DNA of 64,000 nt from Candidatus Levyibacteriota bacterium (GCA_963716145.1 OY970292.1:597171-661170); one strand, 5' to 3'; shown: positions 1 through 35,280, numbered from the stretch's first letter. Numbers and translations are program-made. The notes: generated from the sequence alone by a model not told the origin.

Positions 1-1179
1 GCCGGCGCAAACCCCATGATCTTTGCAACCAATAATACCGAGCGGATGAGAATTGACTCCGCTGGCAATGTAGGAATCGGGACGACAGCACCAACTCATC
101 CATTACATGTCGTAGGTACCGCGATAAAAACAGAGCGTTTTGGAGGTACTCCCCAATTTATAGCAAGCAGATCAAATGGCACTTCCGCATCTCCTACTAT
201 AGTTTCAAACGCTAGTACTCTCTTTGCCTTAACGGGTCAGGGATATGATGGAGCAAACTACCAAAATGCTGCACAAATTTTATTTGAAGTGGATAACACC
301 CCTGGGATAGGTGACATGCCGGGTCGTATAAGCTTCTTCACCACCCCGGATGGCAGTTCTACTCCTCTAGCAAGAATGAGAATAGACTCTAACGGCAATG
401 TGGGAATCGGCACCACAACCCCAACCAGTTTCAAACTTGAAATAGCCGGTAACATCGGCCCTGAGGCAGATAACACACGGGACTTGGGATCAGCAAGCAG
501 AAGATGGGCAAATATTTACGCAACAAATATCACAGGGGCTGTGACACCAACAGGATTTACTCAAGGATCAGTAGCCTTTGCAGGAAGCGGTGGCACCCTG
601 AGCCAGGACAATGCCAACTTCTTCTGGGATGATACGAATAATCATCTAAATATTGGTACTACCAATACTACTGCGGGGGGCAGCTTAATCTTTGGCGCAT
701 CTGTTGCAAATATTTCGATGGATACGGTGAACGGGGCGGATAACAAACGTCTTCAACTTAGTAGTGGTGGCAATGATGGTTCAGTTACTCGCGGAGCTTA
801 TATAAATCTTTTTGGCAATGAAACGGCTTCTCAGCCAGGCTATTTAAGCCTTTTAGCCGGTGAGGGTGGAGATATCACCTTCTATGCTCAGCCGGTTGGA
901 TCGTTACTAGAACGAGTAAGAATTACAAGCGCGGGCAATGTGGGGATTGGGACCACCTCCCCTGCTGCTGTCTTGCATACTGCCTCAGATACCAATGGCA
1001 GCGTCCTTTTTTCACAAGCAAGCAACGATGCCAGCACTGCAAATGTAATCATCCGGAAATCAAGAGGAACTCATGCCGTGCCGCTTGATGTACAAAGCTC
1101 AGACGCTTTGGCAATTTTTGGCGGGCCGGTTACACTGGCGGCTCTTCCTGCAAGCTGCTCAATTGAAGGTGGAGGTTGA
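1..1179 (+). CDS. Giant repeat surface/tail-fibre-like protein, segment 1 (5'-partial; ORF 16..1179)
   Basis: Repeated module '...ERMRIDS(A/N)GNVGIGTT(A/S)P...' and 'FKLEIAGNIGPEADNTRDLGSASRRWANIY'. Open at the window start. The frame changes near 1120-1180 into the next ORF. Confidence 0.7.
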   Translation, partial: AGANPMIFATNNTERMRIDSAGNVGIGTTAPTHPLHVVGTAIKTERFGGTPQFIASRSNGTSASPTIVSNASTLFALTGQGYDGANYQNAAQILFEVDNTPGIGDMPGRISFFTTPDGSSTPLARMRIDSNGNVGIGTTTPTSFKLEIAGNIGPEADNTRDLGSASRRWANIYATNITGAVTPTGFTQGSVAFAGSGGTLSQDNANFFWDDTNNHLNIGTTNTTAGGSLIFGASVANISMDTVNGADNKRLQLSSGGNDGSVTRGAYINLFGNETASQPGYLSLLAGEGGDITFYAQPVGSLLERVRITSAGNVGIGTTSPAAVLHTASDTNGSVLFSQASNDASTANVIIRKSRGTHAVPLDVQSSDALAIFGGPVTLAALPASCSIEGGG

Positions 1180-4100
1180 CGGCGCATTTACTTCCGGAGT
1201 AAGACCACCGGGAAGAATCACATTCACTACCAGTAACAGCGCAGGCACATTAGCCGAGAAAATGAGAATCGACTCTACCGGCAATGTGGGCATTGGGACC
1301 ACTGCGCCAACGGCCCTGCTTCATCTGTTGACAACCGGTCCCACAGAAGCACGGCAAACAATTGAAAGTACGGGAGTCACAGGTCTGTCCACCTTGCACT
1401 TGCGTGCTGGTACAGATGACGTACAAGTCAGCTTAGATAGAGCAGGAAATTTATTCAGCATCACTAATTTAGCTACCGATCCTATTAATTATTTGTTTAA
1501 TGCAACAACAACCGGAACTGCAGGTAATCAGCTATATCTATCAACATCCGGTAATGTGGGAATCGGGACGACTACCCCAACCTCTTTCAAACTTGAAGTC
1601 GCAGGCAATATCGGACCTGAGGCTGATAATACAAGAGACTTAGGATCAGCTTCCCGCAGATGGGCGAATATTTATGGTACCAACTTTGTCGGAGCCATCA
1701 CCCCTACAGGCTTCACCCAAGGTTCAGTAGCCTTTGCAGGAAGCGGTGGCACCCTGACCCAAGACAATCCCAACTTTTTCTGGGATAATACTAATGATAG
1801 ATTGGGCATCGGTACGACCACTCCCGGTTCTCCGTTGAGCATCGCCAAGACCGGTATTTCCAGTTTGACTGCGCTCAACCTTGCTAATAATCAGGGAGGT
1901 TCAGGTGATACTATATCTATAGCAATGTCCAATGGCGGCGGTACCGGCGGACTTATCGGATACGAGCGCCAGGCAGCGGCATCGGGTGACTTTACTTTCT
2001 ATACCTCAGCAACCTTTGGGGGTGCCCTGGCCGAACGTATGCGCATCACCGCTGCAGGCAACGTGGGGATCGGGACGACGAGCCCAGCCACGGCATTACA
2101 TGTTGTAAATAATGTTAGAATTGAACGCTTTGGCAGTACACCAACACTGCAATTTAAACGGGCGAACGGAATAATTTCCTCGCCAACTGCACTAATTCTT
2201 GGAAATACAATTGCATCCTTTACGGCTCAGGGCTATGGTGATACAGGATATGGCGCGAACGTTACCGGTTCATTGATTTTTAAGGCAGCTGAAAACTTCA
2301 CTGATTCAGCACAGGGCACCTACTTTTATCTGGAAACAACCCCAAGTGGCAGCACTACTCCACTCGAAAGATTTCGCATTACCGACTCTGGCAACGTGGG
2401 TATTGGTACCACCACTCCAACCTCTTTCAAACTCGAAATAGCAGGCAATGTAGGGCCTGAGGCAGATAACACCAGAGATCTAGGAAGTGCTTCAAGACGA
2501 TGGGCTAATATATATGGCACCAACTTTGTCGGAGCTATCACTCCCTCAGGTTTTACCCAGGGTAGTGTTGCTTTTGCAGGAAGCGGAGGAACATTGACCC
2601 AAGACAATGCCAACTTCTTCTTCGATGATACGAATAACAGACTGGGGATTGGGACGACAGGGCCTACACGTGATCTCACTTTTGGAGCAACCAATTCGGG
2701 TATTTCGCTTGATACGGTTGACGGAACAGATAATAAGCGGTTGCAGATTATGGGAGGAGGAGATTCTACCTATCTCCGTGGTGCCTATATTAACTTATTT
2801 GGTAATGAATACGCAGGTAGTGGCGGCAACATGAACCTTGTAACTGGTCAGACTGGTTTCTTTTCAGTCTTAACCGGTACAGGACCTCTAGAGCGGATGC
2901 GTATTCAAACAGATGGCAATGTAGGGATTGGGACGACTGCTCCGAATAGTCTCTTATCTGTAGGAGCAACCAATAATTTTCAGGTCGACTCATCCGGACG
3001 GGTAGGTGTCTTTGGCGCACCAACAACTAGTGCGGGGATTACAATTGCCGGAACCCATCCAGGAAACGCAACCACCCTACAAGGGGCATCCTTTGATCCA
3101 ACCTTCCCGGCAACCACCACAAGCTCTGCAAATATTTTGGACATCCGGGGTGTTACAGCAGCTGCTTCTTTTACCGTAGGTAACTGGAGGGGTATTAATA
3201 TCACTTCACCAGTTATAGGAGCTGGCTCAGCAATCACCACCGCAACCGGCATCTCGGTTGGGGCGATTACAACAGGAACCAACAATGCTGGTGTTGTGAT
3301 TGGTGAAGCAACCGGTACGAATCAAAGCAATTTGGTTATTGGGCAAACTACTATCCCCACAGGAACTTACTCTATTTACAACGCTTCAACAGACCAAAAC
3401 TACTTCGCGGGCAACGTGGGGATCGGCACCACTGCTCCAGATGATCTTTTACACTTGAGTAAAAGTGCTGTAAGCGGTGTATCTACACTACAGTTTTCAG
3501 CAGGTAACACTACTACGGTAGGAAATTTCTCATCCGGAAGAATTGCTTCAGGACACACAACTACAAATTATCTTGGAGCATACCTTGACCTGCAATACCC
3601 AACAGCTGAAGACACGTTCACCACGGGCCTGAGACTTATAAACGGTAATGTAGGCATTGGGACGACGGCGCCAAGTGTGAAATTGCAAGTGGTAGATGCC
3701 GCCGCATTCCCACAAATAATGGTTTCCGATTCAATTGCAGACTCTGTAAATAAAAATGGCTGGATCGGCGTCCCTCATTATCTTAACAGTGAAGAAGCTT
3801 TTGGATTCATTTCAGGACGAGTTACCAGCACGACAAATGTAGTGCGCATTGGCGGCTCTTCCTCTGCATTAAACGCCGCTACTGATATACAATTCTATAC
3901 TGCCGCAAATAATACCACTACTACGGGAAACTTGGTAATGCTTATTAACTCTGCAGGCAACGTGGGGATTGGGACGACTACCCCCGGAGACATTCTCCAT
4001 ATCAAAAAGGATCAGGGAGTATCCACAGCGGCAACAATTGAAAATGCCAACGCAGGTGCCGGAGTAGTCGCGGAATTTATCGCGCGCAATGGTACCGGGA

Positions 4101-6139
4101 TTTCCGATGGTTTGAGAATGGGAGCTACCGGTACAGGCTACACTACCTCGGGTGTATTTCTCCAGGACGGCGCATATATCGACGCGGAGACTGCGCTTTC
4201 AGGAGGGCTTGGGATAGCCACCCGCGCCAATGCTCCGATCATGTTCGCGACAAATGGTCAAACCAATGAACGGATGCGTATAGCCGCAGACGGTAACGTA
4301 GGTATCGGCACGACTTCCCCACTCGCTCTTTTTTCTGTCGGTTCAACGTCTCAATTCCAGGTCTCCTCAGCAGGTCTTGTCACTTATGTTGATGGTACTA
4401 CCAATACAGCAACACATGTTTGTAAGAATTCATCAGGACAACTGGCACCGTGTAATACAACCGGTACAGGTGCAGCATTTGTACAGGGTGGTAATTCATT
4501 TGGCGCTCTTGCAACACTAGGAACTAATGATGCATTTGGGCTTGCTTTTGAGACAAGCGGCACAGAAAAGGTACGGATTGACACAAATGGCAACGTTGGC
4601 ATTGGGACGGCGGGACCATTGGCTAAACTTGATGTTCAGGGAGCACCTTATGGAGGCGGTATATGGTCTAGCACATTAAGATTATTTGACACGACTTCGG
4701 CTACGACTGGTACTGGGGCAGGTATTGACTTGGCCGGTTATACAAATGGAACATCGTCAACAGTAGATTTTGGAGCTGGCATAAAAGCAGCAAAGAGCAA
4801 TAGCACGGCAGATAACTACTCATTTGACCTGGCATTTTGGACGAGAACAAATGGGAGTGTTCCCGCCGAAGCAATGAGAATACTTCATAACGGCAACGTG
4901 GGAATCGGGACGACTGCGCCAGGATACAAGCTGGAAGTCAATGGCACAGGTTTTTATAATGGCAAACTCGCAATAAATAACGCAAGCTTGGGCAGCAATT
5001 CATTGGATGTTTTCACGGCGGCCGCTGGAACAATAGCTGCATTCCAAAGCAATGGGACCTTGTCTAATGGGACGCAACTTATGAGTGTTACTCATAGCAA
5101 CGCGGCTACTGGTACGGTAGAGGGTTTTCGAGCTAGTCTAAATTCTACTGTTAATGGTAACATCAGCGTATATCAGTCTGGCGCTGGAACAGCGAACTTC
5201 AATGCATTAGCTTTGAGCACAGGCGACGCACAGTCAACATATGGTCTGAATGGAGGACAATCATGGGCCGTGGGTCTGGATAATTCGGATAGCGACAGCT
5301 TCAAGATAGCGGGATCCACGGCGCTTGGAACAAGCGACTATTTGACCATTCTAACGGGCGGCAATGTGGGGATTGGGACGACCAGTCCTCTTGCCGGATC
5401 CAAACTCGATGTGAATGGAGATGTGAACTTGAGTGGTTCTAACAGGAGTCTATTCTTCCGCCGGGCAGATGGTACAACCCTCTCTGGGACTATTACTACC
5501 GATGGCGCCTCACAATTTGGGATTAATGCTAACAACAGCAGCTTAAATCTTTTATCACGCGATGGGGTGGCTATTACTCAAACAGCAGCAGTTACCGGTA
5601 GTCCACGGGCTCTTATCCTCACAGGTGCATCCCACACAAGCCTTACTGCTTCTGTTGAAGCGCCGGATGTGTTGCTTAACCTTGCGCGGGTGGTACAATT
5701 TTCAACCGGTGCCTTGGCTACTCAAAGAGCAGTCAGAGTCGATGCCCCAGCCTATGCATTTGTCGGTGCCTCCACCATAACTGACGCCACAACCCTTGCA
5801 ATCTCGGGTGCGCCTATATCCAGCACCAATGCAACAATTAGCAATTCTTCTGCTCTGAGAATATCAGCAGGCGCAGTAGGCTCAGGTACAACAAATGCCT
5901 ATGGTCTGTATGTCGATGCACCAACTGGAGCCACCAATAATTATGCAGCAACATTTGCTACCGGCAACGTGGGCATCGGAACCACAGCGCCAGCTGCTAA
6001 ATTGGGTTTTGCGGCTAGTACCGCATCAACAGACGGGATAGATTTTGGAAATGATATCAAGCTTTATAGAGGGCCGGCGGAGCGCTTTATTTCACAGCAG
6101 GAGGTGCGTCTAATACTTTTAGAAGCGCTTCGTCCGTAG
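1073..6139 (+). CDS. Giant repeat protein, segment 2 (1688 aa; frame-shifted continuation of segment 1)
   Basis: More than 20 copies of the GNVGIGTTxP module. The first ~40 aa and last ~25 aa of the ORF look out of frame, so the true junctions are internal (around 1175 and 6065). Confidence 0.7.
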   Translation: MPCRLMYKAQTLWQFLAGRLHWRLFLQAAQLKVEVDGAFTSGVRPPGRITFTTSNSAGTLAEKMRIDSTGNVGIGTTAPTALLHLLTTGPTEARQTIESTGVTGLSTLHLRAGTDDVQVSLDRAGNLFSITNLATDPINYLFNATTTGTAGNQLYLSTSGNVGIGTTTPTSFKLEVAGNIGPEADNTRDLGSASRRWANIYGTNFVGAITPTGFTQGSVAFAGSGGTLTQDNPNFFWDNTNDRLGIGTTTPGSPLSIAKTGISSLTALNLANNQGGSGDTISIAMSNGGGTGGLIGYERQAAASGDFTFYTSATFGGALAERMRITAAGNVGIGTTSPATALHVVNNVRIERFGSTPTLQFKRANGIISSPTALILGNTIASFTAQGYGDTGYGANVTGSLIFKAAENFTDSAQGTYFYLETTPSGSTTPLERFRITDSGNVGIGTTTPTSFKLEIAGNVGPEADNTRDLGSASRRWANIYGTNFVGAITPSGFTQGSVAFAGSGGTLTQDNANFFFDDTNNRLGIGTTGPTRDLTFGATNSGISLDTVDGTDNKRLQIMGGGDSTYLRGAYINLFGNEYAGSGGNMNLVTGQTGFFSVLTGTGPLERMRIQTDGNVGIGTTAPNSLLSVGATNNFQVDSSGRVGVFGAPTTSAGITIAGTHPGNATTLQGASFDPTFPATTTSSANILDIRGVTAAASFTVGNWRGINITSPVIGAGSAITTATGISVGAITTGTNNAGVVIGEATGTNQSNLVIGQTTIPTGTYSIYNASTDQNYFAGNVGIGTTAPDDLLHLSKSAVSGVSTLQFSAGNTTTVGNFSSGRIASGHTTTNYLGAYLDLQYPTAEDTFTTGLRLINGNVGIGTTAPSVKLQVVDAAAFPQIMVSDSIADSVNKNGWIGVPHYLNSEEAFGFISGRVTSTTNVVRIGGSSSALNAATDIQFYTAANNTTTTGNLVMLINSAGNVGIGTTTPGDILHIKKDQGVSTAATIENANAGAGVVAEFIARNGTGISDGLRMGATGTGYTTSGVFLQDGAYIDAETALSGGLGIATRANAPIMFATNGQTNERMRIAADGNVGIGTTSPLALFSVGSTSQFQVSSAGLVTYVDGTTNTATHVCKNSSGQLAPCNTTGTGAAFVQGGNSFGALATLGTNDAFGLAFETSGTEKVRIDTNGNVGIGTAGPLAKLDVQGAPYGGGIWSSTLRLFDTTSATTGTGAGIDLAGYTNGTSSTVDFGAGIKAAKSNSTADNYSFDLAFWTRTNGSVPAEAMRILHNGNVGIGTTAPGYKLEVNGTGFYNGKLAINNASLGSNSLDVFTAAAGTIAAFQSNGTLSNGTQLMSVTHSNAATGTVEGFRASLNSTVNGNISVYQSGAGTANFNALALSTGDAQSTYGLNGGQSWAVGLDNSDSDSFKIAGSTALGTSDYLTILTGGNVGIGTTSPLAGSKLDVNGDVNLSGSNRSLFFRRADGTTLSGTITTDGASQFGINANNSSLNLLSRDGVAITQTAAVTGSPRALILTGASHTSLTASVEAPDVLLNLARVVQFSTGALATQRAVRVDAPAYAFVGASTITDATTLAISGAPISSTNATISNSSALRISAGAVGSGTTNAYGLYVDAPTGATNNYAATFATGNVGIGTTAPAAKLGFAASTASTDGIDFGNDIKLYRGPAERFISQQEVRLILLEALRP

Positions 6140-16379: not shown

Positions 16380-16429
16380 ACAATTAGTATAAAGTATTTT
16401 TAGAAAGTATCAAAATGGGTTTCAACTTG

Positions 16430-16501
16430 TATCCCTGAAGGGAATCGAACCCCCATCTCGCCCTTAGGACGGGCTTGCTCTATCCATTGAGCTACAGGGA
16501 C
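16430..16501 (-). tRNA. tRNA-Arg (anticodon CCT)
   Basis: Reverse complement 'GTCCCTGTAGCTCAATGGATAGAGCAAGCCCGTCCTAAGGGCGAGATGGGGGTTCGATTCCCTTCAGGGATA'. D-arm GCTC/GAGC; anticodon loop GTCCTAA; T-loop TTCGATT; 7-bp acceptor stem with G·U at 1:72. CCA is not encoded. Confidence 0.7.
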
Positions 16502-21167: not shown

Positions 21168-22640
21168 TTACACTCCTTGTCTGTTTGTCAGCTCTCTGAG
21201 GAAAAGATTGTAATCAAACTGGTTTACTGCTCCGTCATCATCCAAATCGGATAGCAAATTATTTGCTGCGGTGCAAGAGACGGCAGGTAGGAAATCAGAA
21301 TAGCATCCCATCAAAATATTGTAATCAAGGATATTAATTACATTGTCTCCATTAATCTCACCATTTATTAACACTGTTTGAGGCATTTGATTAGTTGTTC
21401 CTGCGGTTATTGTCTGAATGCCCGGAACTAAGGATTTTAAGAACTGGTTTGTCTTTACTTTTACCGTATATGCACCGGTTACAAAAGCGCTACCCATATC
21501 AATATTCCCCGTGAATTTGCCGGAAGTTGAATTATAGTTAACAGCTCCGTCTTTTGTTGCTACCAATTGGTTCTGAGCATTGAGCACTTCAACTCGTACA
21601 TTTCTTTGTGGGTGCAATGGGTCGGGATTTCCCCCTGATGCCGGATTCGCGCTATCCCCACCCTGACCTATTCCATGAAGAAGAAGAGTTAGGGACAAAG
21701 TTGTATTACCTGGAGCCGGAGTTGATGTTGGAGTGATTGTAGGACTTGGAGTAGTTCCTCCTTCAGCTCTAGTGTGATCGTAAGAGTTTGGGTTGCTGGC
21801 ACTTCCATCTGTGTGGCATATAGGATCTCCACCGTCAATTAAACCATTGTTGTTATTGTCTCTTGAGTCAGCGCAGGTTGCTCCGTTTCCGCCCTGTTCC
21901 CCAGGTCTTGTAGGGTCGTAACTGTTGGGATTATTTGGATTATTGTCTGTGTGACAGGTTGAATCCAAATTGTCTTTGAAACCATTGTTATCGTTATCAA
22001 TGTTGTCTGAGCATCTTGAAGGAGGAGTGGTTACCGTGGGATTGACAGTCCCTTCATTTCGCGTAGGGTCATATGGATTATTTAGATTTCCACCTGTGTG
22101 ACAAGCAGGATCCCCCGCATCAATCAACTCATTCTGGTTATTGTCAATTCCATCAGCACAAGTTGCAGGAGGTGAAGTGGGTGAAGGGGTGGGGCTCGGA
22201 ACTGTAGTAGGACTTGGTGTTGGAGTTGGACTTGGGATTGGAGTTGGGGTGATCCGCATACTTCCACACGCTGCTGATGAGCTGAGATTATTACCTGTGC
22301 CGTTATTGTTGCCGGTAAGCCCCTGATGAATTGTATTGTTGTTACCGGTAAGATTACCTATCATGCCAGCACACACTTCATTACCATGCCCTGTTAAGTT
22401 CCCTATATATCTTCCTGTAATCAGATTCCCGTTCCCATACATATTCCCTTGGAAATCCCCATTTACTGTACAATTGTTAACATGCAGATCGCTTGCTCTG
22501 TTGGGACAGGTAGTTTCCGCAGCATTTGATCTTGTTTCCTGTCTTTGCTGACTGACCAAAACACCGCCGAAAAGCCCAAAAACAAGCACTATCCCTACCA
22601 ATACGGGTAATTGTTTTCTGGAGAATAATTTTTTTAGCAT
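21168..22640 (-). CDS. Secreted Cys/Asp/Asn-rich repeat protein with C-terminal dockerin-like domain (paralog 1)
   Basis: N-terminal signal anchor. Three 'C(A/S)D.IDN..N..ID.GDP.CHTD.N.NNP.SYDPTR' repeats. Pro/Thr linkers. C-terminus 'INGDNVINILDYNILM...DLDDDGAVNQFDYNLF' looks like duplicated dockerin type-I Ca-binding segments. Confidence 0.6.
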   Translation of the reverse strand: MLKKLFSRKQLPVLVGIVLVFGLFGGVLVSQQRQETRSNAAETTCPNRASDLHVNNCTVNGDFQGNMYGNGNLITGRYIGNLTGHGNEVCAGMIGNLTGNNNTIHQGLTGNNNGTGNNLSSSAACGSMRITPTPIPSPTPTPSPTTVPSPTPSPTSPPATCADGIDNNQNELIDAGDPACHTGGNLNNPYDPTRNEGTVNPTVTTPPSRCSDNIDNDNNGFKDNLDSTCHTDNNPNNPNSYDPTRPGEQGGNGATCADSRDNNNNGLIDGGDPICHTDGSASNPNSYDHTRAEGGTTPSPTITPTSTPAPGNTTLSLTLLLHGIGQGGDSANPASGGNPDPLHPQRNVRVEVLNAQNQLVATKDGAVNYNSTSGKFTGNIDMGSAFVTGAYTVKVKTNQFLKSLVPGIQTITAGTTNQMPQTVLINGEINGDNVINILDYNILMGCYSDFLPAVSCTAANNLLSDLDDDGAVNQFDYNLFLRELTNRQGV

Positions 22641-22685
22641 GGATAATTTATGTATAATTGCTACCTAATTATAAGTAGAACAGAA

Positions 22686-23586
22686 CGGGTAAGCTTTGTC
22701 AAGAATAATGCTTATACTCCCTGCCTATTTGTCAGCTCTCTGAGGAAAAGATTGTAATCAAACTGGTTTACATGACCATCGTCATCCAAATCGGCTAACA
22801 AATTATTTGCTGCAGTACAGGAAACGGCAGGCGTAAGATCGGAATAGCATCCTATCAAAATATTGTAATCAAGGATGTTAATGGTGTTGTCTCCGTTAAT
22901 CTCACCATTTATCAATGTTGTTTGAGGCATTTGATTAACTCCTCCCGCAATTATATTTTGAATACCGGGAGTTAATGCTTTTAAGAACTGATTTGTCTTT
23001 ACTTTTATGGTATAAACTCCGCTTACGAGAGTAGTCCCCGCATCAACAGTTCCTGTGAAATTACCGCCAGTTGTACTGAAATTAACTACTCCGTCTTTTG
23101 TTAAGATCAGCTGGTTCTGAGCATTGAGCACTTCAACTCGTACATTTCTTTGTGGGTGCAGTGGATGTTGATTTCCCCCTGATCCAGGATTGGCGCTATC
23201 CCCCGCACTACCAATACCGTGAAGTAGAAGATTGAAAACCAGACTCGTGTTTCCGGGAACAGGTGTTGAGGTAGGAGTTCTAGTTGGTGTAGGCGTGAGA
23301 GTTGGCGGTGTGGTTGGTGAAGTCTCATTTCTACTAGGATCGTAAGAGTTTGGATTATTTGGATTTCCGTCTGTGTGGCAGATTGGATCTCCACCGTCAA
23401 TCACACCGTTATTGTTGTTATCTCTTGAATCAGCACAGGTATTCCCTCCCCCTTGCTCTCCCGGTCTTGTAGGATCGTAGCTATTGGGATTATTTGGATT
23501 ATTGTCTGTGTGACATGTTGAATCAAAACTGTCTTTGAAACCATTGTTATCGTTATCAATGTTGTCTGAGCATCTGGAGACGGGAG
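22686..23586. repeat. ~900-bp identical direct repeat (3' halves of paralogs 2 and 3, copy 1)
   Basis: DNA identical to 24298..25198. The two copies diverge at ~23587 and ~25199. Confidence 0.85.
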
Positions 23587-24253
23587 TGGTCACTGGAGGA
23601 GTTACTGTAATAGTAAGTCTAGGAGTTACTGTAGGAATAGAGCCTTCATTTCTGGTAGGGTCATAGGTATTTGGATTGTTCTGATTGCCATCTGTGTGAC
23701 AAGCCGGATCTCCACCATCAATCAACTCATTCTGGTTATTGTCAATTCCATCAGCGCAAGTTGCTGGAGGTAGGGTGGGACTGATAGTTGCGGATGGACG
23801 TACTCCGCATGGCGTGGAAGCATTTGTGATATTTCCTGTTCCGTTTATCGGGCCGCCAACTCCTCCATGAATTATGTTGTTGTTGCCGTTTATACCACCA
23901 TTTAGTCCGCCGCAGATGTCATTGCCATTGCCGCGAATAGTCCCGTTCATTCCTCCCATTATTATATTGTTGTCACCGGTAATGTTCGCCGGGAAGCCTC
24001 CCAATCCTCCACGAATTGTATTTCTACTTCCAAAAATACTGCCATTAAAGCCGCCATCAATAGTGCAGTCATCAGCGGTCAGATCCTGACCCGGTCCAAC
24101 AGTAGTGCAGTTTCCGGTTCCTCCGCGGCCTGCAGCGCTACTTCTTTGGTCCTGCTGCTGCTGACTAACCATCACCGCGCCGAACAGGCCAAAAACCATA
24201 ACAACACCTACTAGTATCGGAAGACTAGATTTTGAAAAAAGTTTTTTTAGCAT
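22712..24253 (-). CDS. Dockerin-domain Cys/Asp-rich repeat protein (paralog 2)
   Basis: Same architecture as paralog 1. The C-terminal ~295 aa are identical to paralog 3. Confidence 0.6.
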   Translation of the reverse strand: MLKKLFSKSSLPILVGVVMVFGLFGAVMVSQQQQDQRSSAAGRGGTGNCTTVGPGQDLTADDCTIDGGFNGSIFGSRNTIRGGLGGFPANITGDNNIIMGGMNGTIRGNGNDICGGLNGGINGNNNIIHGGVGGPINGTGNITNASTPCGVRPSATISPTLPPATCADGIDNNQNELIDGGDPACHTDGNQNNPNTYDPTRNEGSIPTVTPRLTITVTPPVTTPVSRCSDNIDNDNNGFKDSFDSTCHTDNNPNNPNSYDPTRPGEQGGGNTCADSRDNNNNGVIDGGDPICHTDGNPNNPNSYDPSRNETSPTTPPTLTPTPTRTPTSTPVPGNTSLVFNLLLHGIGSAGDSANPGSGGNQHPLHPQRNVRVEVLNAQNQLILTKDGVVNFSTTGGNFTGTVDAGTTLVSGVYTIKVKTNQFLKALTPGIQNIIAGGVNQMPQTTLINGEINGDNTINILDYNILIGCYSDLTPAVSCTAANNLLADLDDDGHVNQFDYNLFLRELTNRQGV

Positions 24254-24297
24254 AAATTAACTATATTAAAATTGGCCTAACTATAGTAGAACAGATA

Positions 24298-25198
24298 AAA
24301 TTATACTTTGTCAAGAATAATGCTTATACTCCCTGCCTATTTGTCAGCTCTCTGAGGAAAAGATTGTAATCAAACTGGTTTACATGACCATCGTCATCCA
24401 AATCGGCTAACAAATTATTTGCTGCAGTACAGGAAACGGCAGGCGTAAGATCGGAATAGCATCCTATCAAAATATTGTAATCAAGGATGTTAATGGTGTT
24501 GTCTCCGTTAATCTCACCATTTATCAATGTTGTTTGAGGCATTTGATTAACTCCTCCCGCAATTATATTTTGAATACCGGGAGTTAATGCTTTTAAGAAC
24601 TGATTTGTCTTTACTTTTATGGTATAAACTCCGCTTACGAGAGTAGTCCCCGCATCAACAGTTCCTGTGAAATTACCGCCAGTTGTACTGAAATTAACTA
24701 CTCCGTCTTTTGTTAAGATCAGCTGGTTCTGAGCATTGAGCACTTCAACTCGTACATTTCTTTGTGGGTGCAGTGGATGTTGATTTCCCCCTGATCCAGG
24801 ATTGGCGCTATCCCCCGCACTACCAATACCGTGAAGTAGAAGATTGAAAACCAGACTCGTGTTTCCGGGAACAGGTGTTGAGGTAGGAGTTCTAGTTGGT
24901 GTAGGCGTGAGAGTTGGCGGTGTGGTTGGTGAAGTCTCATTTCTACTAGGATCGTAAGAGTTTGGATTATTTGGATTTCCGTCTGTGTGGCAGATTGGAT
25001 CTCCACCGTCAATCACACCGTTATTGTTGTTATCTCTTGAATCAGCACAGGTATTCCCTCCCCCTTGCTCTCCCGGTCTTGTAGGATCGTAGCTATTGGG
25101 ATTATTTGGATTATTGTCTGTGTGACATGTTGAATCAAAACTGTCTTTGAAACCATTGTTATCGTTATCAATGTTGTCTGAGCATCTGGAGACGGGAG
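24298..25198. repeat. ~900-bp identical direct repeat (copy 2)
   Basis: See 22686..23586. Confidence 0.85.
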
Positions 25199-25865
25199 TT
25201 GGTGTTGGTGTTATAGTTGGCCTCAATGTTGGAGTAGGTGTGCTGGTTGGAATCCTAGTTGGGGTTGGAGTAGGTACGCGGCTAGGAGTTGGTGTTGGAA
25301 GATTAACCTCAGATCTGTGAGAGTCATATGAGTTGGGATTGTCCTGGTTACCGTCAGTATGGCAGGCAGGATCACCTCTATCAATCAGTTCATTTTGGTT
25401 ATTGTCAATTCCATCAGCGCAAGTTGTGGGTGGTGGCGTTGGCGAAGAGGTTGGAGTTATATATGGATTGGGCGAGCATCCGCCAATGTTGGCCACTTGC
25501 CTTGCAGTATTACCGCTTCCACGCATACTTCCTAAAACATTATTTCCAACATGATTGTTATCCCCTGTCACACAACCCGCGACATTATTCCCAATTCTAT
25601 TACCATTACCGAATACATTTCCTACATTATTTGTTATATTGTTATTATTTCCAATCAAATACCCAGAAACATTAACTGCAGTACAGTTATCGGCGATTAG
25701 ATCCCCATTCGTATTTGCGCTGCAATTGCCGGCAGCATTTGATCTTGTTTCCTGTCTTTGCTGACTGACCAAAACACCGCCAAAAAGCCCAAAAACCAAA
25801 AGAACGCCGGCAACAATTGAAAATTTTGTTCCAAATGAAAGATTTTTGAGGCTGTAAAAACTCAT
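24324..25865 (-). CDS. Dockerin-domain Cys/Asp-rich repeat protein (paralog 3)
   Basis: Same architecture. Divergent N-terminal ~215 aa. Confidence 0.6.
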   Translation of the reverse strand: MSFYSLKNLSFGTKFSIVAGVLLVFGLFGGVLVSQQRQETRSNAAGNCSANTNGDLIADNCTAVNVSGYLIGNNNNITNNVGNVFGNGNRIGNNVAGCVTGDNNHVGNNVLGSMRGSGNTARQVANIGGCSPNPYITPTSSPTPPPTTCADGIDNNQNELIDRGDPACHTDGNQDNPNSYDSHRSEVNLPTPTPSRVPTPTPTRIPTSTPTPTLRPTITPTPTPVSRCSDNIDNDNNGFKDSFDSTCHTDNNPNNPNSYDPTRPGEQGGGNTCADSRDNNNNGVIDGGDPICHTDGNPNNPNSYDPSRNETSPTTPPTLTPTPTRTPTSTPVPGNTSLVFNLLLHGIGSAGDSANPGSGGNQHPLHPQRNVRVEVLNAQNQLILTKDGVVNFSTTGGNFTGTVDAGTTLVSGVYTIKVKTNQFLKALTPGIQNIIAGGVNQMPQTTLINGEINGDNTINILDYNILIGCYSDLTPAVSCTAANNLLADLDDDGHVNQFDYNLFLRELTNRQGV

Positions 25866-25927
25866 ATATTATTTTAGCTATTTATAGTAGAGCAGATATA
25901 TGAACGGCTTGTCAAGAATAACTTTTA

Positions 25928-27658
25928 TTACATTTTTGAAGGAGCTTCTATTCCTAGAAGATTCAGGCCTTTTTTAATCACTTCTCCTGTTTTGGATGTT
26001 AGAGCCAAACGAAAATCTTTACTCCCCTCCTCGGCCTTTAAAATTTGATGTTTTTGATAAAAAAGATTAAAACCTTGAGCAAGCTCAAAAAGATATGTCG
26101 CTACAGCACTCGGGCTCAACCTCTCCGCAGCCTCAATGATTACATCGTCAAATTTTGCCAGCAAACGAAGTAGCTCTCTCTCCTCAGGTTCAAATTCTCC
26201 TTTGAAATTGGAAATTGGAAATTGGAAATTGGAAATTCCTGCTTTTAGCAGCACACTCTGTGTGCGAGCATAAACATACTGTATATATGGTCCTGAATTT
26301 CCATCAAAGCTAATTGACTCTTCCAAATCAAATGCAATCTCCTGCTGTGTCGAAACTTTAAGAAATGAATATTTTACTGCAGCGACTGCAACCTTCTCGG
26401 CAATAATTTTTTGTTCCTCTTTTGTATAGTCTGATGCATTTTTATCTAGAATATCAATTATTTCTTTTTTTGCTTCATCAATGAGCCAATCTCCCAATAT
26501 CACGTTTCCGGATCTTGAGTTCATTTTACCGTGTTTTAGCTTGACCCACCCATAAGCCAAATGTTTCTCCTTACCACGCGTCTCCGGAAAAAGCTGAGCG
26601 AGCGCTTCAAAAACAACCTGAAAGTATCCCGACTGTTCAGGACCCACAACGTGGATAATCAAATCAGGATTATTTTCTTCAAATTGCAATGGCCCGAGCC
26701 CCATATCCTTGCCTTCGTAGGTTGGATTTCCCTCACTCGTAATAAATACTCTGTCATGAAGACCAAATTTTTTGCCGGGGAAAATAATCGCCCCATCGCT
26801 TTTTTCAAAAACTCCTTTTGTAAGCCCCTTCAAAACATTTTCTTTACCGGTCTCATATACCTCACTCTCAAAATAATAGCGGTCAAAATGAGCGTAAACT
26901 CTTTTGTAAATTTGTTCAAAGTAATCAAGGCTCCACTGCCTAGTGGTTTGGTAAAGCTCCCAAATAGACTTGTCTTTTGCATAGATTTTTTTGTTGATTT
27001 CACCAATTTCTTTTTTCGCATCCGGATTTTCTTCATAAGCTTTACTGCCTGCTGCATACGCTTTACCCAATAAATTAATTTTCTGTTCTAAGTTTAATTC
27101 TGAATTCTGAATTCTGAATTCTGAATTCTGCAAAATGCCGTACAGGCATTTTGCAATATGCATTCCAACATCTCCCTGATAATTTCCGCGGACTACTTTT
27201 GCACCCACAGCCTCAAGTAAACGCACAATTGACTCGCCGGTCGCAATATTGCGCAGATGACCGATGTGAAACGCTTTGTGGGTATTTGGGTGAGCAAATT
27301 CAACCAATATTTTCTTACCGGTAAGAGAAGTTTTATTTTTTTTACTATCTAAGTCTGTCAAACTATCAATTAGTGTATCATTTGAGATCCAAAAATTGAT
27401 AAACCCCGGCTTTACGACTTCCATTTTTTCAAAAATCCTTAATTCTTTATTCTTACTTCTTAATTCTTCTGAGATTTCCTCCCCCAACTCCATAGGATTT
27501 TTACCAAGTTTTTTACCTGCAACCAATGCTATGTTACTGGAATAATCCCCATGTTTTGGATCAGCCGGATAGTCGACTTTGACCTCAATATCACCCAATC
27601 CTATTTTTTCCAGAATTTCACCTAATTCTTCTTTTATTGTTTGTTTAATCATAATCAC
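25928..27658 (-). CDS. argS: Arginine--tRNA ligase
   Basis: 576 aa. 'HIGHLRN' class-I motif. The C-terminal anticodon-binding domain ends in '...APSKM'. Contains two in-frame heptamer microsatellites. Confidence 0.85.
   Translation of the reverse strand: MIMIKQTIKEELGEILEKIGLGDIEVKVDYPADPKHGDYSSNIALVAGKKLGKNPMELGEEISEELRSKNKELRIFEKMEVVKPGFINFWISNDTLIDSLTDLDSKKNKTSLTGKKILVEFAHPNTHKAFHIGHLRNIATGESIVRLLEAVGAKVVRGNYQGDVGMHIAKCLYGILQNSEFRIQNSELNLEQKINLLGKAYAAGSKAYEENPDAKKEIGEINKKIYAKDKSIWELYQTTRQWSLDYFEQIYKRVYAHFDRYYFESEVYETGKENVLKGLTKGVFEKSDGAIIFPGKKFGLHDRVFITSEGNPTYEGKDMGLGPLQFEENNPDLIIHVVGPEQSGYFQVVFEALAQLFPETRGKEKHLAYGWVKLKHGKMNSRSGNVILGDWLIDEAKKEIIDILDKNASDYTKEEQKIIAEKVAVAAVKYSFLKVSTQQEIAFDLEESISFDGNSGPYIQYVYARTQSVLLKAGISNFQFPISNFKGEFEPEERELLRLLAKFDDVIIEAAERLSPSAVATYLFELAQGFNLFYQKHQILKAEEGSKDFRLALTSKTGEVIKKGLNLLGIEAPSKM
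26204..26238. repeat. Tandem heptamer (gaaattg)x5 inside argS, encoding 'GISNFQFPISNF'
   Basis: Perfect 7-bp tandem repeat that keeps the reading frame. Confidence 0.9.
27096..27130. repeat. Tandem heptamer (aattctg)x5 inside argS, encoding 'QNSEFRIQNSEL'
   Basis: Perfect 7-bp tandem repeat that keeps the reading frame. Confidence 0.9.
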
Positions 27659-28962: not shown

Positions 28963-30153
28963 TTACTGAGCAAATACTTCTTGAATAATTACCAGTGCTT
29001 CATCGATTTCCTTTTTAGAGACGTTGATTGGAGGCAAAAATCTAATTGTATCCGTACTTGATAAGGCGGCAATGAGTCCTACGTCCTGCATTTTTTTAAC
29101 GTAAGGTGTAGTTTTTTCCGAAAGCTCGATGCCAAGCATCAGTCCTTTGCCTTTTATTTTTACAATTACTGGGTTTTCCAATTTTTTAAGTTCCTCAAGG
29201 AAATATTTACCCATTTCTTTCGCGTTCTCAAGTAACTTTTCTTTCTTAATCTGCCTTATTACCTCAGTTGCCGCAGCACAAGCTAATGGAGATCCGCTAA
29301 ATGTACCTCCATGACCGCCTTTTGTCATCAAATCACCTACTTCTCTGGTGCTCATAACAAATCCAAAAGGTATTCCGTATGAAAAACTTTTTGAGAAGCA
29401 GGCAATATCCGGCACAACTCCGTACTGATCGGACGCGAGCCAACTTCCGGTCCTGATCGCGCTTTGTACCTCATCAAAAATAAGAAGAATACTCTTTGAT
29501 AGACAGAATTCTTTTAGTTCGCTTAAATAATTTTCATTGGGCAAAATCACTCCTGCCTCTCCCTGAATCGGCTCAACAATAACCGCCGCCGTGTTGCCAT
29601 TTATATTTTGTTTTACTGCTTCAATATCATTGAATCGAACATGAACAACATCTTTATTTATAAATGCCATGTAGTTTTTTTTGTACAATTCCGAGGCTGT
29701 AACAGACAGGCTGCCTAGTGATTTTCCATGATACGCGTTAGTTACTGCGACAAATCCGCTCTTGCCCGTTGCTGTCATTGCGAGTTTTAACGCGGCATCA
29801 ATTGATTCGGCTCCGGAGTTGGTAAAAATTATCTGCGTAAGATTTGCTGGAAGGATAGCGCTTAGTTCATTAATAAACTCCGCCCGCTTATCAGAATAAA
29901 ATGTCTGATGAGTTGAGGGAAGTGTCGTAAGTTGTTGACTAATCGCTGATGTAACTGAAGGATTTGTATATCCGAGAATATTGACCCCGATATTGGTCAT
30001 AAAATCCAGATACTTTTTACCGTCCGTATCATAAACATATGTTCCTTGTCCACGCTCCAAAGCGATCCCCCGCTTTGGGTAAAGCTTTACTTCGGATGTA
30101 TTTTCCAGATCGCTGATTTGTTTAAGATTCATAAATATGAGTTCCTCCCCCAT
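28963..30153 (-). CDS. argD: Acetylornithine/[LysW]-ornithine aminotransferase (class III PLP)
   Basis: 'LIFDEVQSAIRTGSW' and the 'CFSKS' lysine region. 396 aa. Confidence 0.8.
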   Translation of the reverse strand: MGEELIFMNLKQISDLENTSEVKLYPKRGIALERGQGTYVYDTDGKKYLDFMTNIGVNILGYTNPSVTSAISQQLTTLPSTHQTFYSDKRAEFINELSAILPANLTQIIFTNSGAESIDAALKLAMTATGKSGFVAVTNAYHGKSLGSLSVTASELYKKNYMAFINKDVVHVRFNDIEAVKQNINGNTAAVIVEPIQGEAGVILPNENYLSELKEFCLSKSILLIFDEVQSAIRTGSWLASDQYGVVPDIACFSKSFSYGIPFGFVMSTREVGDLMTKGGHGGTFSGSPLACAAATEVIRQIKKEKLLENAKEMGKYFLEELKKLENPVIVKIKGKGLMLGIELSEKTTPYVKKMQDVGLIAALSSTDTIRFLPPINVSKKEIDEALVIIQEVFAQ

Positions 30154-30940: not shown

Positions 30941-30952
30941 AATTTTTAAGTT

Positions 30953-32852: not shown

Positions 32853-32930
32853 GTTAATTTTAAACCTTTCCTAATTCTCATAACGCAATTAAGCTTCACG
32901 TCATGATCCTGAGCTTGCCGAATGGACATA

Positions 32931-33122
32931 TTATTGTCCCCAATCTTCCTGCGCGACAGGCGCCAGGGTGAGCTTAATTGGATTCACTTCAACAACCTCC
33001 AAATCAGTACTGCACTCAGGACAAGTTATAACTTCTCCTACCTGAGTATCTTTCTCAACAGTAATTTCTCCATGACAATCCAGGCATTTTGTTTTTGTGT
33101 TATCTAAAATTTGATCATTCAT
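32931..33122 (-). CDS. lysW: LysW/ArgW amino-group carrier protein
   Basis: 63 aa. Two CxxC pairs ('CLDCHG', 'CPEC') and a C-terminal 'EDWGQ' (LysW 'EDWGE' tail). Confidence 0.8.
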   Translation of the reverse strand: MNDQILDNTKTKCLDCHGEITVEKDTQVGEVITCPECSTDLEVVEVNPIKLTLAPVAQEDWGQ

Positions 33123-35276: not shown

Positions 35277-35280
35277 ATTG

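What the first reader, a model, noticed from the sequence alone, without database searches (positions are those of the whole stretch)
21168..25927. Three tandem dockerin-tailed Cys/Asp/Asn-rich secreted proteins with a 900-bp gene-converted block and hypervariable N-termini
Each protein has an N-terminal membrane or signal anchor and a Gly/Asn-rich head. It then has three thrombospondin-type-3-like Ca-binding repeats ('CADGIDNNQNELIDGGDPACHTDGN.NNP.SYDPTR'), Pro/Thr linkers, a beta-rich domain and a C-terminal pair of dockerin-like segments ('GDNVINILDYN', 'DLDDDGAVNQFDYN'). Paralogs 2 and 3 share a 100%-identical 900-bp 3' block (22686..23586 and 24298..25198) while their 5' thirds differ. 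That implies recent gene conversion, diversifying heads on a constant tail. A conserved upstream box 'cttgacaa(a)g..ctg(t/c)tctact(a)ta' precedes each gene. Dockerins imply a cohesin-bearing scaffold partner, so this may be a cell-surface assembly or host-attachment system in a CPR-like organism.
Basis: partly seen in the sequence, partly recalled or inferred. Interest (0 to 1): 0.65.

Follow-up and report, generated by a model that had tools for sequence, protein, structure and literature searches.

The report
Dockerin-tailed surface proteins of a Levybacterium
Three neighbouring genes in a tiny-genome (CPR, Levybacteria-like) bacterium encode secreted proteins with different beta-solenoid heads on a shared X-module plus dockerin tail, which most likely plugs them onto cohesin proteins on the cell surface; two of the tails were recently made identical by gene conversion.

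Summary
Three co-oriented minus-strand genes (21168..22640, 22712..24253, 24324..25865) encode 490, 513 and 513 aa acidic proteins rich in Asn, Gly, Thr and Pro, each with 12 Cys. Each has a hydrophobic leader, a divergent Gly/Asn-rich head (38-42% identity), three ~41-aa acidic two-Cys repeats, Pro/Thr linkers and a conserved 184-aa tail.

The exact repeat is 894 bp (22694-23587 = 24306-25199). It has abrupt edges, so gene conversion is the best reading.

The tail is an Ig-like X-module plus dockerin dyad. Its profile matches the CipA X-Doc in PDB (E 1.4e-6), and its AlphaFold model (pLDDT 93.5) matches a type II X-Doc as the only significant Foldseek hit.

Cohesins exist. The same genome encodes a membrane-anchored 200-aa cohesin beside other tail-bearing genes, and in related genomes such cohesin genes usually sit directly downstream of tail-bearing genes.

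Two claims fail or weaken. Thrombospondin type 3 is not supported; the repeats are nearest NCBIfam NF033662 and the teneurin C-rich domain. The heads are old paralogue classes with orthologues in other genomes, not hypervariable.

Verdict: a non-cellulosomal cohesin/X-dockerin surface-display system, widespread in Levybacteria-like CPR genomes and undescribed in the papers searched. Binding and function are inferred.

The parts
24324..25865 (-). Gene C (513 aa): leader, beta-solenoid-like head, 3 acidic two-Cys repeats, PT linkers, X-module + dockerin tail
   Evidence: ORF, translation and alignment, Pfam Dockerin_1/FlgD_ig, NCBIfam NF033662 at 40.9 bits
22712..24253 (-). Gene B (513 aa): same architecture with a different head
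   Evidence: AF2 models
21168..22640 (-). Gene A (490 aa): same architecture with a third head type; its tail is 78% aa / 79% nt identical to B and C
22694..23587 (-). Gene-conversion tract, copy in B: repeats 2-3, PT linker, X-Doc tail, stop codon and 18 nt downstream
   Evidence: exact 894-bp identity with 24306-25199; abrupt drop to 78% and lower outside it
24306..25199 (-). Gene-conversion tract, copy in C
24131..24253 (-). B leader (aa 1-41): hydrophobic helix followed by the conserved QQxQ(E/D)xRSxA motif; probable Sec signal peptide
   Evidence: AF2 helix 11-38; invariant Q31, R37, S38, A40 in alignment A2; the leader alone is shared with cohesin-like/X-Doc proteins (hhalign E 1e-11). 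Cleavage is inferred.
23804..24130 (-). B head (aa 42-150): Gly/Asn-rich beta-solenoid-like domain with 4 Cys
   Evidence: AF2 pLDDT 86-96 with regularly spaced short strands; only non-significant beta-helix matches (ice-binding proteins, bactofilin)
23318..23761 (-). B acidic two-Cys repeats 1-3 (aa 165-205, 227-267, 272-312) with PT linkers between them
   Evidence: repeat extraction; consensus TCxDxxDNNxNGxIDxxDPxCHTDGNPxNPxSYDP; NF033662; teneurin C-rich domain E 0.023
22913..23251 (-). B X-module (aa ~335-447): Ig-like beta-sandwich packed against the dockerin
   Evidence: AF2 strands 7-118 of the tail model, pLDDT 93.5, pTM 0.87; profile match to the CipA X-Doc spans the end of the X-module and the dockerin; Foldseek 5k39_B
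22715..22912 (-). B dockerin (aa ~448-513): two Ca-loop/helix segments (EINGDNTINILD, DLDDDGHVNQFD) with a conserved Cys pair between them
   Evidence: Pfam Dockerin_1; PDB dockerin hits; three helices in the AF2 model
21171..21707 (-). A X-module + dockerin tail (aa ~312-490)
   Evidence: hmmsearch with tail profile A1, E 1.6e-90
24327..24863 (-). C X-module + dockerin tail (identical to B's)
22668..22708 (-). Conserved upstream box of gene A (TTATTCTTGACAA ... CTGTTCTACTTATAAT)
   Evidence: (D8)
24280..24320 (-). Conserved upstream box of gene B
25881..25921 (-). Conserved upstream box of gene C, directly after the argS stop codon
22519..22583 (-). 65-nt patch in the leader region of A, 98% identical to C (25732-25796): a second, short exchange between paralogues
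   Evidence: (D7)
25732..25796 (-). Matching 65-nt patch in C

Best explanation
The three genes encode exported, disulfide-stabilised surface proteins of a Levybacteria-like CPR bacterium.

Proposed steps:
1. A conserved leader takes each protein through Sec. The leader is a hydrophobic helix followed by QQxQ(E/D)xRSxA and is probably cleaved after the small-x-Ala site.
2. The mature protein has an N-terminal beta-solenoid head that differs between paralogues and is the presumed ligand- or host-binding end.
3. Behind the head is a stalk of Ca-binding acidic two-Cys repeats and Pro/Thr linkers.
4. At the C-terminus is an X-module/dockerin dyad.
5. The dockerin binds, with Ca2+, to a cohesin module on a cell-bound partner. 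The partner could be the small membrane-anchored cohesin protein encoded elsewhere in this genome, or the N-terminal cohesin-like module of other X-Doc proteins. Binding leaves the head pointing outward.
6. Each gene has its own copy of a conserved promoter-like box.
7. The tails of B and C, together with repeats 2 and 3, were recently homogenised by an 894-bp gene conversion. This keeps different heads on the same docking module.

Shown here: the gene and domain architecture, the X-Doc identity of the tail, cohesin genes in the same genome, their conserved linkage to tail genes in relatives, and the conversion tract. Inferred: leader cleavage, Ca2+ binding, the actual cohesin partner, and what the heads bind.
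For: Dockerin:
- Pfam Dockerin_1 scores 24.8 bits on the tail against a cut-off of 22.9, and 40 of 45 family tails match.
- All best PDB sequence matches are dockerins covering both segments.
- Both 12-residue loops carry D/N/E at positions 1, 3, 5, 9 and 12 (sequence).

X-Doc dyad:
- The tail profile's best PDB match is the CipA X-module plus type II dockerin, 2b59_B, at E 1.4e-6. The match spans the end of the X-module and the dockerin.
- The AF2 model has pLDDT 93.5 and pTM 0.87. Its only Foldseek hit at E<=1e-3 is the type II X-Doc 5k39_B (E 2e-4, TMt 0.60).

Cohesin partners:
In its locus L001 there is a 200-aa TM + Cohesin protein (28.3 bits versus a cut-off of 24.1) and two further tail-bearing proteins.
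- In 77 related loci there are 38 cohesin-only ORFs of ~200 aa. 32 of them start within about 110 nt downstream of a tail-bearing gene.
- 32 of 34 of these proteins match Pfam Cohesin (best E 1.1e-11), and their profile matches solved cohesins at E 1.4e-10.

Modularity:
- The tail is always C-terminal and sits behind many different passengers, including VWA/SdrD_B, CARDB, ricin, CBM, pectate-lyase-like and BNR domains.
- About 1010 clusters at 50% identity match the tail at E<=1e-30.

Export:
- Cys counts are even in every domain.
- The conserved leader is shared across passengers.
- Some family members carry a classical short signal peptide in its place.

Gene conversion. Paralogue tails in other genomes are only 60-76% identical at the nucleotide level.
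Against: - No cohesin is encoded in the 64-kb window.
- The window's tail subtype ('RELTNxxGQ') is rarely next to cohesin-only genes in relatives (1 case) and almost never occurs with an N-terminal cohesin (2 of 22). Its specific partner is therefore unidentified.
- On the full-length proteins Dockerin_1 falls just below Pfam's cut-off (22.5 and 17.8 versus 22.9 bits).
- Leader cleavage is not demonstrated. The polar stretch between the hydrophobic core and the putative site is long (~11 aa).
- No binding, localisation or expression data exist.
- That L001 lies in the same genome as the window rests on the identical longest-contig length and sources, not on a sequence overlap.
Confidence: 0.68

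Rival explanations
1. Inverted topology. The N-terminal helix is an uncleaved membrane anchor, so the head sits close to the membrane and the X-Doc tail is the distal end. The tail would then capture cohesin-bearing proteins, or bind a cohesin-like receptor on another cell such as a host.
For: AF2 predicts one long helix at residues 11-38. The polar spacer before the putative cleavage site is unusually long. Cohesin-like modules occur on other exported proteins that such a tail could recruit.
Against: The invariant small-x-Ala motif after the helix is typical of a signal-peptidase site. Some family members carry a classical short cleavable signal peptide at the same position. Cohesin-only proteins carry a plain TM segment without the motif, as expected for the true anchors. 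In characterised systems a C-terminal X-Doc is the attachment end (established knowledge of CipA/SdbA).
Confidence: 0.18
2. The tail has no cohesin partner. It would instead be a Ca-stabilised beta-sandwich/EF-hand module that binds cell-wall or host glycans directly, or a C-terminal secretion/sorting domain.
For: There are weak hits to FlgD_ig and to the T9SS sorting domain Por_Secre_tail. Many non-cellulosomal dockerins have no known cohesin (my own knowledge of Peer et al. 2009). No cohesin lies in the window.
Against: Linkage of tail genes with cohesin-only genes across genomes is strong and conserved. Cohesins exist in this genome. T9SS belongs to diderm Bacteroidota, and the hits are far below threshold. 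The whole tail matches X-Doc rather than a sorting domain.
Confidence: 0.08
3. The 894-bp identity is an assembly or polishing artefact, with two similar paralogous tails collapsed to one consensus, rather than a biological gene conversion.
For: The genome is a metagenome-derived 1.14-Mb contig. No reads are available, and no independent assembly of the locus was found.
Against: Both edges are sharp and lie in locally similar sequence (a PT linker and the conserved box), as expected for homologous exchange. A second, independent 65-nt A/C patch shows that the paralogues do exchange sequence. A's tail is closer to B/C (79%) than paralogue tails are to each other in other genomes (60-76%). Polishing cannot erase ~20% divergence.
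Confidence: 0.06
4. The heads are actively diversified, by a DGR-like or phase-variable mechanism, giving strain-level hypervariability.
For: The heads are Asn-rich and differ strongly between paralogues. DGRs are common in CPR (my own knowledge). An Avd-like gene is present in a related genome (L078).
Against: No template repeat for any head occurs elsewhere in the window. No reverse transcriptase was found among the window ORFs scanned; eleven ORFs of 150 aa or more between 38.5 and 59.4 kb were not scanned. Each head type has orthologues in other genomes, at 58-72% identity measured over head plus repeats.
Confidence: 0.03

Closest known systems
X-module/type II dockerin dyad (X-Doc) of cellulosomal scaffoldins, e.g. 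C. thermocellum CipA bound to the SdbA cohesin (PDB 2b59, 3kcp, 5k39)
   Same: An Ig-like beta-sandwich lies directly before a two-segment, three-helix Ca-binding dockerin at the extreme C-terminus. Profile and fold matches span both modules. The presumed role is to attach a protein to a cell-bound cohesin.
   Different: Sequence identity is only ~14%. The organism is a CPR bacterium, and no glycoside-hydrolase domain was annotated among the tail-bearing proteins listed. The tail sits on individual cargo proteins rather than on one large scaffoldin. A conserved Cys pair lies between the two dockerin segments. The candidate anchors are ~200-aa TM + cohesin proteins, not SLH-domain proteins.
Non-cellulosomal cohesin/dockerin modules (Peer et al. 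2009, from memory) and the dockerin-domain protein SEML1_0315 of Saccharibacteria (Wang et al. 2023, PMC10633639)
   Same: Dockerin-bearing envelope proteins occur in organisms without cellulosomes. In Southlakia the dockerin protein is essential for epibiotic growth and is proposed to act in adhesion.
   Different: Here the dockerin is part of a 184-aa conserved X-Doc tail used by about a thousand protein clusters. Cohesin genes are co-operonic with it, and a shared leader is present. No paper describing this arrangement was found in the library searched.
NCBIfam NF033662, acidic double-disulfide repeat
   Same: Three stretches per protein match the 32-position model, at 38.5-41.0 bits against a cut-off of 41. 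The repeats are acidic, D/N-rich and Cys-bounded.
   Different: The scores sit at or just under the cut-off. The units here are ~41 aa with only two Cys each.
Teneurin C-rich (Ca-binding) domain (PDB 7plp, 8r50, 8fia)
   Same: The motif C-x-D-S-x-D-N-D/N-x-D/N-G-L-I/V-D-x-x-D-P-x-C is shared. The teneurins are the top PDB matches of the repeat profile.
   Different: E-values are only 0.023-0.24. Teneurins have extra Cys, and no homology claim can be made.
Thrombospondin type 3 repeat (Pfam PF02412)
   Same: Both are Asp/Asn-rich, Ca-binding-looking and disulfide-containing short repeats.
   Different: There is no Pfam match at E<=10 on the concatenated repeats, or at E<=1 on the whole proteins.

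Membership tests
Dockerin (Pfam PF00404 Dockerin_1) | Whole-protein score at or above the Pfam gathering threshold (22.9 bits) | tested here: inconclusive
   Full-length A scores 17.8 bits and B/C 22.5 bits, all below the cut-off. The isolated B/C tail scores 24.8 bits, above it, and 40 of 45 family tails match at E<=0.01, best 4.4e-8.
Dockerin (Pfam PF00404 Dockerin_1) | Two duplicated segments, each a 12-residue EF-hand-like Ca loop (D/N at positions 1, 3, 5, 9, 12) followed by a helix | tested here: met
   EINGDNTINILD and DLDDDGHVNQFD are each followed by YN(I/L)(L/F)(I/L). They align to both segments of the Xyn10B/XynY dockerins. AF2 helices are at 131-140, 152-158 and 168-179 of the tail.
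Dockerin (Pfam PF00404 Dockerin_1) | Ca-dependent binding to a cohesin | not testable with these tools
   Only genomic association is available: cohesin genes in the same genome and directly downstream of tail genes in relatives.
X-module/type II dockerin dyad (X-Doc) | An Ig-like X-module immediately N-terminal to the dockerin and forming one rigid unit with it | tested here: met
   The profile match to 2b59_B covers X-module residues 58 onward and the dockerin (E 1.4e-6). The AF2 pTM is 0.87 for the whole 184 aa. Foldseek 5k39_B aligns over 185 columns, TMt 0.60, E 2e-4.
X-module/type II dockerin dyad (X-Doc) | The partner is a type II cohesin on a cell-anchoring protein | not testable with these tools
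   Candidate anchors are ~200-aa TM + cohesin proteins. The cohesin type and the pairing were not determined.
Cohesin (Pfam PF00963), as a partner in the same genome | A protein of the same genome scoring above the gathering threshold (24.1 bits) | tested here: met
   L001 6602..7204 (200 aa) scores 28.3 bits and L001 711..1391 scores 21.7 bits. L001 carries P0049, whose longest contig is the same 1,142,061 bp as for P0001. No cohesin is present in the window itself.
Thrombospondin type 3 repeat (PF02412) | Match to the TSP_3 profile | tested here: not met
   No hit at E<=1 on the proteins or at E<=10 on the three concatenated repeats.
NCBIfam NF033662 acidic double-disulfide repeat | Score at or above the curated cut-off (41 bits) | tested here: inconclusive
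   A scores 41.0, C 40.9 and B 38.5 bits, with three stretches each.
NCBIfam NF033662 acidic double-disulfide repeat | Two disulfides per repeat, as the family name implies | not tested
   Each ~41-aa unit here has two Cys. The model's own Cys pattern could not be inspected.
Gene conversion between tandem paralogues | A tract of identity with abrupt edges, identical at synonymous sites, flanked by diverged sequence, and shorter than the repeat period | tested here: met
   894 identical bp lie within a 1612-bp period. The flanks are 78% identical or less, with 14 synonymous differences in 30 codons. A simple tandem duplication would give identity over the whole period.
Diversity-generating retroelement target | A template repeat and a reverse transcriptase nearby | tested here: not met
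   No second copy of any head occurs in the window. No RT was found among the scanned ORFs. The rest of the genome was not available.

The most novel reading that the evidence does not exclude
Levybacteria may build a hierarchical, non-covalent surface fibre or scaffold entirely from cohesin/X-dockerin links. It would have three tiers:
1. A ~200-aa membrane-anchored cohesin encoded at the 3' end of the operons forms the base.
2. Proteins made of leader + cohesin-like module + X-Doc (56 ORFs in 77 loci) plug into the base and into each other.
3. Cohesin-less proteins with the 'RELTNxxGQ' tail subtype, such as the three in this window, cap the assembly. They would present interchangeable beta-solenoid heads as tip adhesins for attachment to a host cell.

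Gene conversion of the tails would keep all tips compatible with one socket.
Probability: 0.2. Interest if true: 0.75.

Novelty: new variant of a known kind. Interest (0 to 1): 0.5.

Why it matters
CPR/Patescibacteria are thought to live attached to host cells, yet how most of them build their surface and hold on is unknown.

This family gives a concrete, testable surface-display system. It has a conserved export leader, a conserved X-module/dockerin plug, matching small membrane cohesins, and a wide range of passenger domains, including adhesin-like VWA/SdrD, lectins, beta-solenoids and enzyme-like modules. About a thousand protein clusters carry the tail.

It also extends cohesin/dockerin assembly, best known from cellulosomes, to a lineage where it appears to serve general surface display. 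And it shows concerted evolution keeping the plug constant while the heads differ.

The Southlakia result, where a dockerin protein is essential for epibiotic growth, suggests that such proteins can be central to this lifestyle.

Tried and rejected
- Thrombospondin type 3: no Pfam hit at E<=10. Rejected as a family assignment.
- Heads as divergent cohesins: rejected. hhalign of the head alignment against cohesin-like domains aligns only the 37-column leader. No cohesin-profile hit occurs in the window.
- DGR or other templated hypervariation: no head-like template in the window.
- Canonical sigma-70 promoter for the upstream box: the scan did not call it. TTGACA and TATAAT are 23 nt apart, so 'promoter' remains an inference. 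The box is nevertheless conserved across genomes.
- Exact look-ups of genes A and B in the contig index failed, and cluster look-ups gave no names. Taxonomy was taken from ArgRS homologues instead.
- Strain-level variation: not testable, because no relative above 72% identity exists in the collection.
- T9SS sorting-domain reading of the beta-sandwich: hits are far below threshold and it is biologically implausible in this lineage.
- Simple recent tandem duplication as the source of the identical block: rejected, because identity covers 894 bp of a 1612-bp period.

Full report
**1. What is in the sequence**

Three co-oriented ORFs lie on the minus strand: A 21168..22640 (490 aa), B 22712..24253 (513 aa) and C 24324..25865 (513 aa). 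They sit between argS (25928..27658) and a 394-aa ORF with no family match. Beyond that come an M16 peptidase, ndk, a sigma factor, a sortase and the ATP synthase operon.

The proteins are acidic (pI 4.6-4.8) and rich in Asn (13-14%), Gly, Thr and Pro. Each has exactly 12 Cys: four in the head, two in each of three repeats and two in the dockerin. Even Cys counts in every domain fit an extracellular, disulfide-bonded protein.

**2. The identical block**

The exact match is 894 bp, 22694-23587 against 24306-25199. The block covers repeats 2 and 3, the PT linker, the whole tail, the stop codon and 18 nt downstream, which includes the first half of the next gene's upstream box.

In a codon alignment, B and C are 78% identical across repeat 1, with 14 synonymous differences in 30 codons. 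They then become 100% identical for the rest of the gene. A against B/C is 64-93% identical per 30-codon window, with many synonymous changes. Protein-level constraint therefore does not keep these nucleotides identical.

The identity covers only 894 bp of the 1612-bp period, so a simple recent tandem duplication does not fit. A non-reciprocal exchange (gene conversion) is the most economical reading.

A second, 65-nt patch in the leader region is 98% identical between A and C but not B. This shows repeated exchange among the paralogues. In the orthologous arrays of other genomes, paralogue tails are only 60-76% identical at the nucleotide level, so the homogenisation here is recent and local. 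An assembly or polishing artefact cannot be excluded without reads, but it is unlikely.

**3. The tail is an X-module/dockerin dyad**

- On the full proteins, Pfam Dockerin_1 scores 22.5 bits (B, C) and 17.8 bits (A) against a cut-off of 22.9.
- On the isolated 184-aa tail it scores 24.8 bits, and 40 of 45 diverse family tails match.
- phmmer of the tail against PDB returns only dockerins covering both segments (best E 0.016).
- A profile of 45 tails (A1) gives its best match to 2b59_B, the X-module plus type II dockerin of C. thermocellum CipA, at E 1.4e-6. The alignment runs from the last strands of the X-module through the dockerin. Other X-Doc chains follow (3kcp, 5g5d, 4wi0, 4u3s, 5k39).
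- AlphaFold2 with this alignment gives pLDDT 93.5 and pTM 0.87: a beta-sandwich followed by three helices.
- Foldseek against PDB finds one hit at E<=1e-3, the type II X-Doc 5k39_B (E 2e-4, TMt 0.60, 185 columns).
- The two Ca loops (EINGDNTINILD and DLDDDGHVNQFD) have acidic or amide residues at positions 1, 3, 5, 9 and 12. Both are followed by DYN-hydrophobic helices. This internal symmetry is my reading of the sequence.

**4. Cohesin partners**

No ORF in the window matches a cohesin profile, and none of the window proteins scanned with Pfam carries one.

P0049 is an 852-aa VWA protein with the same tail. Its longest contig has the same length (1,142,061 bp) and sources as the contig of P0001, and it was retrieved on an 8.6-kb contig, L001. 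L001 carries, in one orientation:
- a 226-aa cohesin-like protein (21.7 bits);
- P0049;
- a 654-aa protein with a cohesin-like N-terminus, Big_1 and the tail (Dockerin_1 23.5 bits);
- a 200-aa protein with an N-terminal TM segment and a Cohesin domain (28.3 bits against a cut-off of 24.1).

A scan of one genome per GTDB species with the tail profile returned 76 loci. Most come from MAGs titled Levyibacteriota, Levybacteria or Patescibacteria, and some carry implausible titles. In these 76 loci plus L001:
- 43 of 77 loci carry two to four co-oriented tail-bearing ORFs.
- 56 ORFs combine an N-terminal cohesin-like module with the tail, 90 have the tail only, and 38 are cohesin-only ORFs of ~200 aa.
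- 32 of the 38 cohesin-only ORFs start within about 110 nt downstream of a tail-bearing gene.
- 32 of 34 cohesin-only proteins match Pfam Cohesin (best E 1.1e-11), and their profile matches solved cohesins (6kg8_A, E 1.4e-10).
- The N-terminal modules of the tail-bearing proteins are a divergent cohesin class. 18 of 40 match Pfam Cohesin, and hhalign to the cohesin-only family gives E 1.4e-28 over 180 columns.

**5. The other domains**

*Leader.* The leader is a hydrophobic helix followed by QQxQ(E/D)xRSxA, with Q31, R37, S38 and A40 invariant in 28 relatives. It is the only part shared between the beta-solenoid-head proteins and the cohesin-like/X-Doc proteins (hhalign E 1e-11 over 37 columns). 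Looser variants occur in most tail-bearing proteins, and a few have classical short signal peptides instead. The cohesin-only proteins have a plain TM segment without the motif. I infer a cleaved Sec signal for the cargo and an uncleaved anchor for the small cohesins. This is not shown.

*Head.* For B aa 42-150, AF2 gives pLDDT 86-96 with short, evenly spaced strands. Foldseek gives only non-significant beta-helix matches. Paralogue heads are 38-42% identical. Over the N-terminal part, which also includes the conserved repeats:
- B pairs with the last gene of the arrays in L078, L080 and L002 at 68-72% identity.
- C pairs with L080 gene 2 at 58%.
- A separate head class is shared by the first genes of the L078, L080 and L002 arrays (63-68% to one another), but it is not represented in the window.
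- By visible motif, A's head resembles P0016, P0019 and P0024 ('NCTINGDFQGN...').

The heads are therefore old paralogue classes, not hypervariable regions.

*Repeats.* The repeats are ~41-aa units with consensus TCxDxxDNNxNGxIDxxDPxCHTDGNPxNPxSYDP. There are 216 units in 97 of the 120 listed relatives, with one to seven per protein.
- NCBIfam NF033662 matches at 38.5-41.0 bits against a cut-off of 41.
- The repeat profile's best PDB matches are the teneurin C-rich domains (E 0.023-0.24).
- TSP_3 does not match.

**6. Context and conservation**

The array occupies the same place, argS - array - (hypothetical) - M16 peptidase - ndk, in two related assemblies: two copies in L078 and three in L080.

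The upstream box (TTATTCTTGACAA, about 13 nt, CTGYTCTAC, T(T)ATAAT-like) occurs only at these three genes in the window. It recurs upstream of related genes in L078, L080, L005, L007, L012 and L015. TTGACA and the TATAAT-like hexamer are 23 nt apart, and the consensus scan did not call a promoter there. The element may therefore be a promoter with an unusual spacing, or a promoter plus an operator.

The organism is a CPR bacterium. The nearest named ArgRS is Levyibacteriota at 68% identity, followed by Gottesmanbacteria and Patescibacteria.

The tail family is large: about 1010 representatives of 50%-identity clusters at E<=1e-30, with the tail almost always at the C-terminus.

**7. Mechanism and rivals**

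The best-supported model has four parts:
- The proteins are exported through the conserved leader.
- The head points outward on a stalk of Ca-binding repeats and PT linkers.
- The protein is attached through Ca-dependent X-Doc/cohesin binding to a cell-bound cohesin.
- Tail homogenisation keeps the paralogues compatible with one socket.

One cross-tabulation refines this. The window's tail subtype ('RELTNxxGQ') almost never co-occurs with an N-terminal cohesin (2 of 22) and rarely precedes a cohesin-only gene. The 'REISTQPGE' subtype often does both. This hints at two tiers: membrane cohesin, then cohesin-bearing adaptor, then cohesin-less cargo. It is inference only.

The rivals are:
- an uncleaved N-terminal anchor with the dockerin distal;
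- a tail that acts without a cohesin;
- an assembly artefact for the identical block;
- templated hypervariation of the heads.

Each is weighed in its own section.

**8. Comparison with what is known, and novelty**

Cohesin/dockerin pairs outside cellulosomes are known (my knowledge of Peer et al. 2009). A dockerin-domain protein is essential in the saccharibacterium Southlakia (PMC10633639). Dockerin and TSP3 repeats occur in giant Omnitrophota proteins (bioRxiv 10.1101/2023.11.21.568195).

I found no paper on a Levybacteria/Microgenomates cohesin/X-Doc system in the searchable library.

The three genes themselves are new members of a recognisable kind. The family-wide arrangement is a new variant of the cohesin/dockerin theme. 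It combines a shared leader, variable passengers, acidic repeats, an X-Doc plug and co-operonic small membrane cohesins.

Noticed in passing
window 1-8389 and 60359-64000: Two blocks with GC 0.47-0.50 against ~0.40 elsewhere. They include a 1688-aa ORF (1073..6139) with no Pfam match, flanked by ORFs with weak, sub-threshold hits to a phage endosialidase tail spike and to Peptidase_G2. This may be a prophage tail-fibre-like region or a giant surface protein.
   Followed up: partly
window 28963-38505: An arginine biosynthesis cluster is present: a LysX/RimK-type ATP-grasp enzyme, a semialdehyde dehydrogenase, an amino-acid kinase, a class III aminotransferase, ornithine carbamoyltransferase and the carbamoyl-phosphate synthase large subunit. 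That is more biosynthesis than is usual for a 1.14-Mb CPR genome.
   Followed up: no
window 41945-45277: A 1110-aa AcrB/RND-family transporter sits in a lineage generally considered to lack an outer membrane.
   Followed up: no
window 24131-24253, 22518-22640, 25743-25865 (leaders of B, A, C): A conserved leader, a hydrophobic helix plus QQxQ(E/D)xR(S/Q)(R/K)A, is shared by otherwise unrelated X-Doc-tailed proteins. It is absent from the small cohesin-only anchors. It may be a lineage-specific export or processing signal, analogous to YSIRK-type signal-peptide motifs.
   Followed up: partly
L001 711-1933: A 226-aa cohesin-like ORF overlaps, in another frame, a 210-aa ORF that matches the X-Doc tail. 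This is probably a frameshifted or mis-sequenced cohesin/X-Doc gene in the window's own genome.
   Followed up: no
related loci L002-L077: There are two tail subtypes. 'RELTNxxGQ', as in the window, is nearly always on cohesin-less proteins. 'REISTQPGE' is often on proteins with an N-terminal cohesin-like module and lies next to cohesin-only genes.
   Followed up: partly
L078 20610-20984: A bAvd/23S_rRNA_IVP-family gene (the DGR accessory protein family) is inserted within the ATP synthase operon of a related genome. It is absent from the equivalent place in the window.
   Followed up: no
loci (e.g. L003, L006, L014, L016, L027): Many contigs carrying this CPR-type gene family are titled 'uncultured Gammaproteobacteria', 'Lysobacterales', 'Acidiferrales', 'Sulfotelmatobacter' or 'Methylomirabilota'. 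These are probably mislabelled or mis-binned MAG records, and they include a closed 1.61-Mb chromosome (OZ246394.1).
   Followed up: no
window 15657-16501: A sortase gene lies next to the only tRNA in the window, tRNA-Arg(CCT). The three X-Doc proteins have no LPXTG-like motif, so they are not obvious sortase substrates.
   Followed up: no
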